DNA of 64,000 nt. Source: Eledone cirrhosa (lineage: Eukaryota). Position 1 is the stretch's first letter. Every line of letters begins with the position of its first letter. A program made the translations under genes and the position numbers. Under the pieces are notes generated by a model. The model was not told where the DNA came from. It made no database searches and saw nothing but the letters and a program-made list of their open reading frames with translations. The stretch lies in the NCBI GenBank assembly GCA_964016885.1, contig OZ024750.1:46500001-46564000 (forward strand), given 5' to 3'. Shown one piece after another: positions 31,218 to 31,715 of the stretch.

Positions 31218-31715
31218 ATTATACAGAGAAGTGTGTTACACAGTGAGATGTGTGTAAAGGATTATTACACGTGAGTTTAACCGTTACTCTATGGAGAACA
31301 ATACCTACAGGTTAGCAATTAAATAGATTTCGCCCCACTCTGGGCAGCGTGTATATTAGCTTTCTCTCTACCCATTAGGCTAGATGTGTCGTGAACAACA
31401 CCCATACTTGCTGACTGAGGAACCTATGGGCTGTTATACCGCATATTTCGGTGGTGAAACGAACTAAATTCGTATCAGCAAGCTTATAGTTATAAGGTTG
31501 GTAATTTAAAACTCTACTTCAGAGATTTGATTCTGACTTAGATTTTGTTCTATTGAATTGCGAACCGGTAGGTATTGTTCTCCATACAATAACGGTTAAA
31601 CTCACATGTAATAATCCTTTACACACATCTCACTGTGTAACACACTTCTCTCTATGTAATATATTTGTATTTGAGCTCAGATGAAAATTCTCTGTTTTTC
31701 TTTGAGCTAATATTA
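31218..31715 (+). mobile_element. Family-E HHR element with inverted repeats of about 90 bp (31218-31308 / 31568-31660)
   Basis: The arms are reverse complements and enclose the HHR. The element starts directly after (TA)n. Confidence 0.85.
31407..31482 (+). ncRNA. Type I hammerhead ribozyme, family E, intact
   Basis: CTTGCTGA-CTGAGGA-ACC...GGT-GAAA-CGAActaaaTTCG-TA-TCAGCAAG. 8-bp stem I, 5-bp stem III, GUA site. Confidence 0.9.

What the first reader, a model, noticed from the sequence alone, without database searches (positions are those of the whole stretch)
31218..31715. Monomer-competent HHR with a branched stem II inside 90-bp inverted repeats
31407-31482 has an 8-bp stem I, a full 5-bp stem III and a CUGAGGA core, so it should fold without dimerising, unlike the minimal families. 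Stem II carries a 28-nt insert with its own ACCG/CGGT hairpin. The element's 3' part is copied in inverted orientation at its 5' end, so the whole RNA could be a rod with the ribozyme in the loop.
Basis: partly seen in the sequence, partly recalled or inferred. Interest (0 to 1): 0.7.

Follow-up and report, generated by a model that had tools for sequence, protein, structure and literature searches.

The report
Pseudoknotted hammerhead in Penelope-type remnant
This is a truncated copy of a multi-copy animal repeat, likely the tail end of a Penelope-type jumping gene, whose mirror-image arm appears to be an ordinary insertion scar; its self-cutting RNA motif is real and unusually complete, and is predicted to be braced by a pseudoknot that would let it cut as a single molecule.

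Summary
The hammerhead is real: type I, 31407-31482, stem I 8 bp, stem II 3 bp, stem III 5 bp, cut predicted after A31474; 0 such hits in 200 window shuffles. The inverted arms are real (97 of 104 positions), but the rod is not a family feature. Contigs from two other organisms show a multi-copy family whose own sequence continues elsewhere at 31327. 5 of 6 other head-to-head junctions seen lack an intact ribozyme between the arms. This is the known insertion layout of Penelope-like elements: inverted 5'-truncated copy, tail, (TA)n target. The ribozyme resembles Hydra-clade ones. The 'branch' is not supported: ACCG/CGGT is broken in one organism's majority. Instead the six bases 5' of stem I (31401-06) exactly complement the first six of loop II (31425-30), with a U-A to C-G double change between organisms: a likely pseudoknot. 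With a true hairpin stem III (5-nt loop; 1-3 nt in 26 of 26 published Hydra-clade rows), monomer cleavage is plausible for the family, untested, and less sure for this diverged copy. No reverse transcriptase gene could be linked. New variant of a known kind.

The parts
31156..31219 (.). (TA)n microsatellite, left flank; likely the insertion target
31213..31327 (-). Inverted, 5'-truncated copy of the element's 3' region (mirror of 31549 to about 31665); outer end blurs into (TA)n
   Evidence: 97 of 104 positions complementary over 31224-31327; 2-nt gap at the outer end
31327..31327 (.). Head-to-head junction, one shared base; not a family junction
   Evidence: family contigs continue 5' of 31326/31327 into other sequence (X1 4 contigs, X7 1); contigs on the arm continue into the complement of the sequence 5' of 31549 (X4 10 contigs)
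31327..31940 (+). Forward 5'-truncated copy of the repeat family (non-coding 3' end), interrupted by the SINE-like insertion
   Evidence: 394 and 373 contigs laid on 31224-31734 from runs X1 and X4
31394..31406 (+). 5' flank strand of the predicted pseudoknot; 31401-06 pairs with 31425-30, and 4 more pairs can form with 31432-35
   Evidence: duplex -12.1 kcal/mol; exact abutting 6-bp helix in 5 of 5000 flank shuffles; T31405C with A31426G
31407..31482 (+). Type I hammerhead: stem I 31407-14/31475-82, core 31415-21, stem II 31422-24/31453-55, GAAA 31456-59, stem III 31459-63/31469-73, predicted cut 3' of 31474
31425..31452 (+).
31549..31665 (+). Segment mirrored by the left arm; holds an AC-rich hairpin at 31623-31638 (by eye)
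31666..31734 (+). One-sided 3' extension ('tail'), continued at 31934-31940
   Evidence: family loose ends at 31718 and 31721 match 31914-31940 and run on
31735..31913 (+). Later insertion of a high-copy SINE-like repeat, 179 bp, with 20-bp target duplication 31715-34 / 31914-33 (19 of 20 identical)
31941..31965 (.). (TA)n microsatellite, right flank

Best explanation
This locus is a truncated copy of a multi-copy repeat, likely the 3' end (pLTR plus tail) of a Hydra-clade-like Penelope element, whose inverted arm was likely made during this one insertion, and whose type I hammerhead is predicted to be held in its active shape by a pseudoknot between the 5' flank of stem I and loop II, which would let it cut as a monomer. 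Shown: the motif, the arms, the (TA)n flanks, multi-copy status in two organisms, copy-to-copy variation of the inversion junction, the 6-bp complement and one double change in it (unphased). Inferred mechanism: an element-encoded GIY-YIG endonuclease nicks both strands of a (TA)n target; reverse transcription primes from both nicks at two internal start sites near the RNA 3' end (about 31665 for the left arm, about 31940 for the forward copy, which gives the one-sided tail); both cDNAs stop early and join head to head at 31327. The SINE-like repeat landed later. In the parent RNA the flank-loop helix would form first during transcription, stems II, III and I would then close, and the RNA would cut after A31474. 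Any rod RNA here would be a by-product of read-through transcription.
For: Family, not one-off: 394 contigs (X1) and 373 (X4) from two organisms lie on the stretch; summed contig depth is 1,052-2,729 5' of the ribozyme and 37,599-46,323 near 31620-55 in X1, 14-145 and 2,537-3,840 in X4 (a rough measure, not a copy number). Junctions vary: arm-to-forward joints land at 31357, 31453, 31484, 31596, 31613 and a loose end at 31468; six head-to-tail 'goes back' joints are shown. Arms drift freely: 7 of 7 mismatches are non-pairing, none G-U. Two other hammerhead-bearing repeat families in the window also sit in inverted pairs. The layout is as published (PMC8557442 passages; PMC3846280 passages); two internal start sites and nicking of both strands of AT-rich DNA were shown in vitro for an anole element (PMC11167929). 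Hydra-clade fit (PMC8557442 supplement): (TA)n preference listed for 26 of 27 families; stem III starts AC and ends GT in 26 of 26 rows, as here; U opposite U at the base of stem II in 14 of 26 rows, and A31422T is the majority in X1 (605/971) and X4 (125/182). Pseudoknot: exact 6-bp complement abutting both stems (5 of 5000 shuffles; 29 within 2 nt; 119 as stable overall); T31405C (790/911) and A31426G (554/656) both in X1, both absent in X4 (0/108, 0/196); A31398G and C31399T keep or add pairs in the extension; enclosed path 18 nt against 17 nt for the canonical 6-bp/4-bp contact; pseudoknots between stems I and II are needed for fast cleavage in other hammerheads (PMC3088659 section 7).
Against: No reverse transcriptase or GIY-YIG gene could be linked: the 150 longest complex frames of 238 gave only LINE-type RT/APE hits at 59-61 kb; no genome is held. 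The tail (~80 nt) is longer than the published 30-40 bp. Variants are unphased; each joint rests on one contig; tables were cut (70 variants, 16 joints, 164 loose ends not shown); the laid runs may simply lack this locus (best word share 0.33). In X4, T31427C (105/196) and G31430T (121/196) break the 6-bp helix with no partner change visible (depth falls to 108 at 31405 and 65 at 31400, so partners may be hidden), and T31416C (U4 to C) reaches 99/182. In this copy 31438-42 can pair with 31451-55 and take stem II's 3' strand: stem II pairing probability is 0.00 in all nested folds. The flank-loop helix has only 0.10-0.37 probability in nested folds. Shuffle tests of the pseudoknot were made after it was noticed. 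One double change between two organisms may be a single event.
Confidence: 0.72

Rival explanations
1. Same Penelope-type insertion scar, but the flank-loop II pairing is a brake or chance: it sequesters stem I's 5' strand and the core in an 18-nt loop, or this copy misfolds, so the ribozyme is slow, needs protein help or a partner, like other animal Penelope hammerheads.
For: In nested folds of longer contexts stem I falls to 0.01; the active fold is 3.8-7.5 kcal/mol above the ensemble; stem II is 3 bp, or 2 bp plus U-U in the family majority; the anole hammerhead cut only with its protein; animal Penelope hammerheads are slow; X4 shows U4C and unpartnered loop changes.
Against: Nested models cannot hold pseudoknots and give 5.3-5.8 kcal/mol gaps even for four intact-looking copies of another family here; with 31425-35 held, stems I and III reach 0.97 and 0.77; U-U at the base of stem II is tolerated in natural ribozymes.
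Confidence: 0.3
2. A non-autonomous hammerhead repeat (non-LTR retrozyme or short Penelope-dependent element) rather than the end of a coding element; this is a solo copy moved by Penelope machinery.
For: No ORF linked; retrozymes carry active type I hammerheads, occur as monomers and derive from pLTRs.
Against: No unit repeats within ~415 bp of element sequence, and the family runs on at both ends; head-to-tail joints are scattered single contigs, not one fixed joint; depth is strongly 3'-biased.
Confidence: 0.12
3. One reading: a dedicated rod-shaped RNA, or a foldback/MITE-like element with terminal inverted repeats, presenting a branched hammerhead in its loop.
For: The 498-nt stretch folds as a rod, -224 kcal/mol, z -19.7; TA flanks on both sides.
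Against: Any 100-bp inverted repeat gives such a fold; the junction is not a family junction, 5 of 6 other junctions seen exclude the intact ribozyme, the repeat is not terminal on the right, and 7 of 7 arm mismatches are non-pairing.
Confidence: 0.04
4. Chance hammerhead-like match.
For: No Rfam hit; the minimum-energy fold is not the hammerhead.
Against: 0 hits in 200 shuffles; no majority variant shown in 31406-15 or 31451-83 while loop II has 8 shown rows.
Confidence: 0.01

Closest known systems
[quoted passage not shown] 2021, PMC8557442; passages and supplement parts seen), including Hydra-1_Obim
   Same: (TA)n target; hammerhead near the 3' end; stem III AC...GT; U opposite U at the base of stem II in many members; inverted 5'-truncated copy noted for Penelope-13_HM.
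   Different: Loop III 5 nt and non-palindromic (1-3 nt in 26 of 26 rows); loop II 28 nt (3-10 nt there); flank-loop II complement; longer tail. By eye its ribozyme and 3' end differ from Hydra-1_Obim. ORF not seen.
Insertion layout of endonuclease-bearing Penelope elements (Arkhipova et al. 2013, PMC3846280; Frangieh et al. 2024, PMC11167929)
   Same: Head-to-head inverted, shorter copy at the 5' end; one-sided tail; partial tandems; AT-rich target; AC-rich hairpin near the 3' boundary (by eye).
   Different: Tail ~80 nt rather than 30-40; target duplication unreadable in (TA)n; no ORF start found at the ribozyme.
Fungal and protist Penelope hammerheads with large helix III (Cervera and de la Pena 2014, PMC4209133)
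   Same: Type I, stable helix III, monomer-type; the fungal one cut as a single ribozyme.
   Different: Those are telomeric, endonuclease-less elements with no recognised I-II contact; this one is dispersed in an animal-type genome and has a predicted pseudoknot.
Pseudoknot-stabilised hammerheads (Perreault et al. 2011, PMC3088659), e.g. human C10orf118
   Same: Short stem II; Watson-Crick helix joining stems I and II; helix can form before the rest.
   Different: In the passages read, tested cases were metagenomic type II and vertebrate intronic ribozymes, not retroelement ends; here the helix could reach 10-11 bp.
Animal non-LTR retrozymes (PMC7229834; bioRxiv 10.64898/2026.07.22.740005)
   Same: Type I hammerhead in a non-coding, pLTR-related repeat.
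   Different: No tandem unit seen; strong 3' bias and inversions.

Membership tests
Type I hammerhead ribozyme | CUGANGA and GAAA core, NUH cut site, three stems with stem I open | tested here: met
Type I hammerhead ribozyme | Core and stems kept across family copies | tested here: inconclusive
   no shown majority variant in stems I, III or GAAA in X1 and X4, but U4C in 99/182 of X4 depth, 10.1 is U in the majority, 70 rows hidden, unphased
Type I hammerhead ribozyme | Self-cleavage at the predicted site | not testable with these tools
   needs in vitro transcription
Pseudoknot-stabilised hammerhead | Helix of 4 bp or more joining the stem I extension and loop II, with covariation | tested here: inconclusive
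   6-bp exact complement; one double change between X1 and X4; two X4 changes without visible partner
Minimal / dimer-type animal Penelope hammerhead | Absent or short palindromic helix III with a 0-4-nt loop | tested here: not met
   5-bp stem, 5-nt non-palindromic loop; isolated hairpin -1.8 kcal/mol
Penelope-like element (endonuclease-bearing) | RT plus GIY-YIG open reading frame | not testable with these tools
   none in 150 of 238 complex window frames; no genome; laid contigs give only 30-nt loose ends
Penelope-like element (endonuclease-bearing) | 5' truncation, partial tandems, variable inverted 5'-truncated copy | tested here: met
   tables 2, 5, 5c, 7; single-contig joints
Penelope-like element (endonuclease-bearing) | One-sided 30-40-bp tail | tested here: inconclusive
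   one-sided extension present but ~80 nt
Penelope-like element (endonuclease-bearing) | Hammerhead in the terminal repeat | tested here: met
   ribozyme lies ~255 nt from the end of the mirrored segment
Hydra clade | RT phylogeny | not testable with these tools
   no ORF in hand
Hydra clade | (TA)n target and clade-typical hammerhead pattern | tested here: inconclusive
   target, AC...GT stem III and U-U fit; loop II and loop III sizes fall outside all 26 rows
Non-LTR retrozyme | Tandem fixed-length units, each with a hammerhead | tested here: not met
   no second copy in the window; no fixed head-to-tail joint among those shown; arrays of longer units elsewhere not excluded
MITE / foldback DNA element | Constant terminal inverted repeats at both ends | tested here: not met
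   repeat not terminal on the right; junction varies between copies

The most novel reading that the evidence does not exclude
An animal Penelope family carries a fast, protein-independent hammerhead that cuts as a monomer because a 6-11-bp pseudoknot between the 5' flank and loop II replaces the usual loop-loop contact; it cuts its own RNA in vivo, and the 3' product seeds many of the short genomic copies (summed depth in X1 rises from 1,731 at 31440-57 to 12,279 at 31476-93, across the cut site; confounded by loop II divergence). That would break the rule that animal Penelope hammerheads are slow dimers and give a clean system to ask what these ribozymes do for the element.
Probability: 0.3. 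Interest if true: 0.6.

Novelty: new variant of a known kind. Interest (0 to 1): 0.38.

Why it matters
The role of hammerheads in Penelope elements is open: animal ones are described as slow dimers, one needed protein help, and its cleavage was dispensable for insertion in vitro. A family whose ribozyme has a true hairpin stem III and a base-paired I-II contact would be an easy test case: its activity could be switched off and on by Watson-Crick changes outside the core, and compared with where genomic copies begin. The inverted repeat itself teaches nothing new.

Tried and rejected
Rfam, gathering (whole window) and E<=10 (31200-32000): no hammerhead family. Whole genome: none held. Other copies in the window: none besides the two arms. 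Exact-pattern scans: metagenome contigs 0 and 0, viral contigs 0. Sequencing runs: no RNA holder listed, so nothing is said on expression. Runs X6 and X7 gave one contig each; 4 of the 10 listed runs were laid. Pfam on 150 of 238 complex stop-to-stop frames: no Penelope RT or GIY-YIG. Earlier findings by sequence, by place and by two word sets: nothing. Two motifs of the element were not found in the supplements of PMC8557442 and PMC13282606, nor a stem III motif in file 2 of PMC4209133 (line-wrapped FASTA makes this weak; file 1 of PMC4209133 was not searchable). Lunse et al. (PMC5785218) is not held and may list similar variants. Other registers for loop II (31425-30 with 31438-43, or 31425-28 with 31442-45) are within about 3 kcal/mol of each other; the first is compatible with five shown variants and remains a rival to the pseudoknot, the second is broken in X4. 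A comparable flank-loop complement in the second hammerhead family was looked for by eye in 10 aligned copies and was not consistent. Reading frames 3' of the ribozyme close within a few codons (by eye).

Full report
Setting. The window is AT-rich, microsatellite-dense animal-type DNA without long genes. It looks like a cephalopod genome, but that label is recalled from the repeat landscape and was not tested. No whole genome is held, so the copy survey rests on one laying of public contigs.

Observation. A descriptor with these stem lengths hits once in the window and 0 times in 200 dinucleotide shuffles; Rfam misses it. The inverted arms pair at 97 of 104 positions, 31224-31327 with 31549-31652, and the region folds as a rod at -224 kcal/mol. 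The element is longer than stated: a 179-bp high-copy repeat with a 20-bp target duplication interrupts its 3' end, which resumes at 31934-31940; family contigs read straight through that point and further. (TA)n tracts flank both ends.

The rod is an insertion scar. Of 10 listed runs, 4 were laid. X1 and X4 (two organisms) gave 394 and 373 contigs, X6 and X7 one each. Summed depth is far higher near the 3' end than 5' of the ribozyme (X1 about 37,600-46,300 against 1,050-2,730; X4 about 2,540-3,840 against 14-145); this is a rough measure, but it fits 5' truncation. At 31326/31327 family contigs go on 5' into other sequence (X1 4 contigs, X7 1), and contigs on the left arm go on into the complement of the sequence 5' of 31549 (X4 10 contigs). 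No shown contig crosses this locus's junction, though the runs may lack the locus. Other copies have other head-to-head junctions, with the forward part starting at 31357, 31453, 31468, 31484, 31596 or 31613; only the first keeps the whole ribozyme (1 of 6). Six head-to-tail joints are shown, all different. Each joint is one contig, and 16 joints and 164 loose ends were not shown. All 7 arm mismatches are non-pairing on the + strand. This matches the published layout of endonuclease-bearing Penelope-like elements: 5'-truncated partial tandems, an inverted truncated copy at the 5' end, a one-sided tail, microsatellite targets (PMC8557442, passages; PMC3846280, passages). For an anole element, nicking of both strands of AT-rich DNA and two internal start sites were shown in vitro (PMC11167929, parts 1-2 of 4). 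I infer two priming events here, ending near 31665 and 31940, joined at a one-base overlap. Two other hammerhead-bearing families in this window show the same inverted pairs.

Which kind. The supplement of PMC8557442 (part 2 of 59 and searched passages) lists 26 Hydra-clade hammerhead rows. All have stem III beginning AC and ending GT, 14 have U opposite U at the base of stem II, and (TA)n preference is listed for 26 of 27 families, among them an octopus one. Our family has the same stem III ends and, in the majority of depth, U at 31422 (X1 605/971, X4 125/182) opposite U31455; this copy has A there. But loop III is 1-3 nt in all 26 rows and loop II 3-10 nt, against 5 and 28 nt here. By eye the element is not Hydra-1_Obim. 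No RT or GIY-YIG could be linked, so it works like a Hydra-clade Penelope end, and membership is unproven. A retrozyme origin (PMC7229834, passages; bioRxiv 10.64898/2026.07.22.740005, parts 1-3 of 5) is less likely, as no fixed unit shows.

Loop II: pseudoknot, not branch. ACCG/CGGT would stack on stem II behind a bulge and has pairing probability 0.00-0.15. In X1, C31440T (766/854) and G31450T (1238/1653) break it; one X4 subfamily keeps three pairs by a double change (18 loose ends). Meanwhile 31401-06, directly 5' of stem I, is the exact complement of 31425-30, directly 3' of stem II, and four more pairs can follow (duplex -12.1 kcal/mol). An exact abutting 6-bp helix arose in 5 of 5000 flank shuffles, 29 within 2 nt, and 119 shuffles paired as stably anywhere (tested after it was noticed). 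T31405C (790/911) and A31426G (554/656) occur together in X1 and are both absent in X4 (0/108, 0/196), turning U-A into C-G; A31398G and C31399T are compatible with the extension. The enclosed path is 18 nt, against 17 for the canonical 6-bp/4-bp contact (PMC4209133, parts 1-2 of 4). Such helices are needed for fast cleavage in other hammerheads (PMC3088659, section 7 and passages). Against: variants are unphased; in X4, T31427C and G31430T have no visible partner (depth falls from 196 to 108 and 65 over the flank, and 70 rows were hidden); a local hairpin 31425-30/31438-43 also fits five variants; the helix could be a brake.

Monomer or not. Stem III can close alone (-1.8 kcal/mol), unlike the palindromic stubs typical of animal Penelope hammerheads (PMC6765202, passages); monomer-active forms with large helix III were described for fungi and protists. 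No variant is shown in 31406-15 or 31451-83 for X1 or X4, while loop II has 8 shown rows. Yet the nested model puts the active fold 7.5 kcal/mol above the ensemble, 5.9 or 3.8 with the pseudoknot strand held, and stem II never forms freely because 31438-42 pairs with 31451-55. Four intact-looking copies of the second family give 5.3-5.8 in the same test, so the model is a poor judge. About half of X4's depth has U4C. Activity is untested.

Novelty. Seven paper searches turned up no report of this family or of a pseudoknotted animal Penelope hammerhead; most hits were seen as listings only. An octopus repeat annotation (PMC13282606, passages and supplement search) counts 190 Penelope-like families and does not mention ribozymes in its main text; its library was not seen and may hold this family unnamed. 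PMC10085705 (passages) only confirms that the I-II contact is sometimes a helix. Lunse et al. was not available. Earlier scan notes on other genomes reached the same view of inverted arms; they are unchecked leads.

Verdict. Observation partly confirmed; rod and branch rejected; ordinary Penelope-type insertion with an unusual, likely pseudoknotted, possibly monomer-active hammerhead. New variant of a known kind; interest 0.38.

Noticed in passing
window 30377-31106 (related copies 58459-58877, 1738-2078): A 730-bp near-perfect palindrome (97%, centre ~30741) right beside the finding, with a one-sided extension and TA flanks. Each arm holds a minimal hammerhead with the U3-A8 core swap (30993-31030 on +; the - copy at 30486 has lost G12); two more at 58540 (+) and 58837 (-).
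   Followed up: partly
window ~290-860, 7460-7650, 11050-11430, 13518, 16220, 26319, 28515, 28789, 29299, 29888, 51698, 53342: A second, high-copy hammerhead family (8-bp AU-rich stem I, bulged 20-30-nt stem II, short palindromic stem III), about 13 copies in 64 kb, several as inverted or tandem pairs.
   Followed up: partly
window 13302 with 12061-12166 / 13198-13303: A third hammerhead-like core whose 107-bp inverted partner ends just at the start of the core.
   Followed up: no
window 31547-31567 (and 31450): Cluster of G where the family has T (31547, 31555, 31562, 31567); the left arm keeps the family base at the three mirrored sites. Could mean the two arms came from different RNA templates, or a mutation cluster.
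   Followed up: no
window 31440-31493, run X1: Summed contig depth rises about 7-fold across the predicted cut site, and several joints start at 31451-31494; confounded by loop II divergence.
   Followed up: no
window 59168-61318: Decayed LINE-type element: AP-endonuclease and RT fragments.
   Followed up: no
window 31735-31913 and about 15 other places: A ~180-bp SINE-like repeat at 80-97% identity, some copies in tandem (44587-45157, 55292-55659).
   Followed up: no
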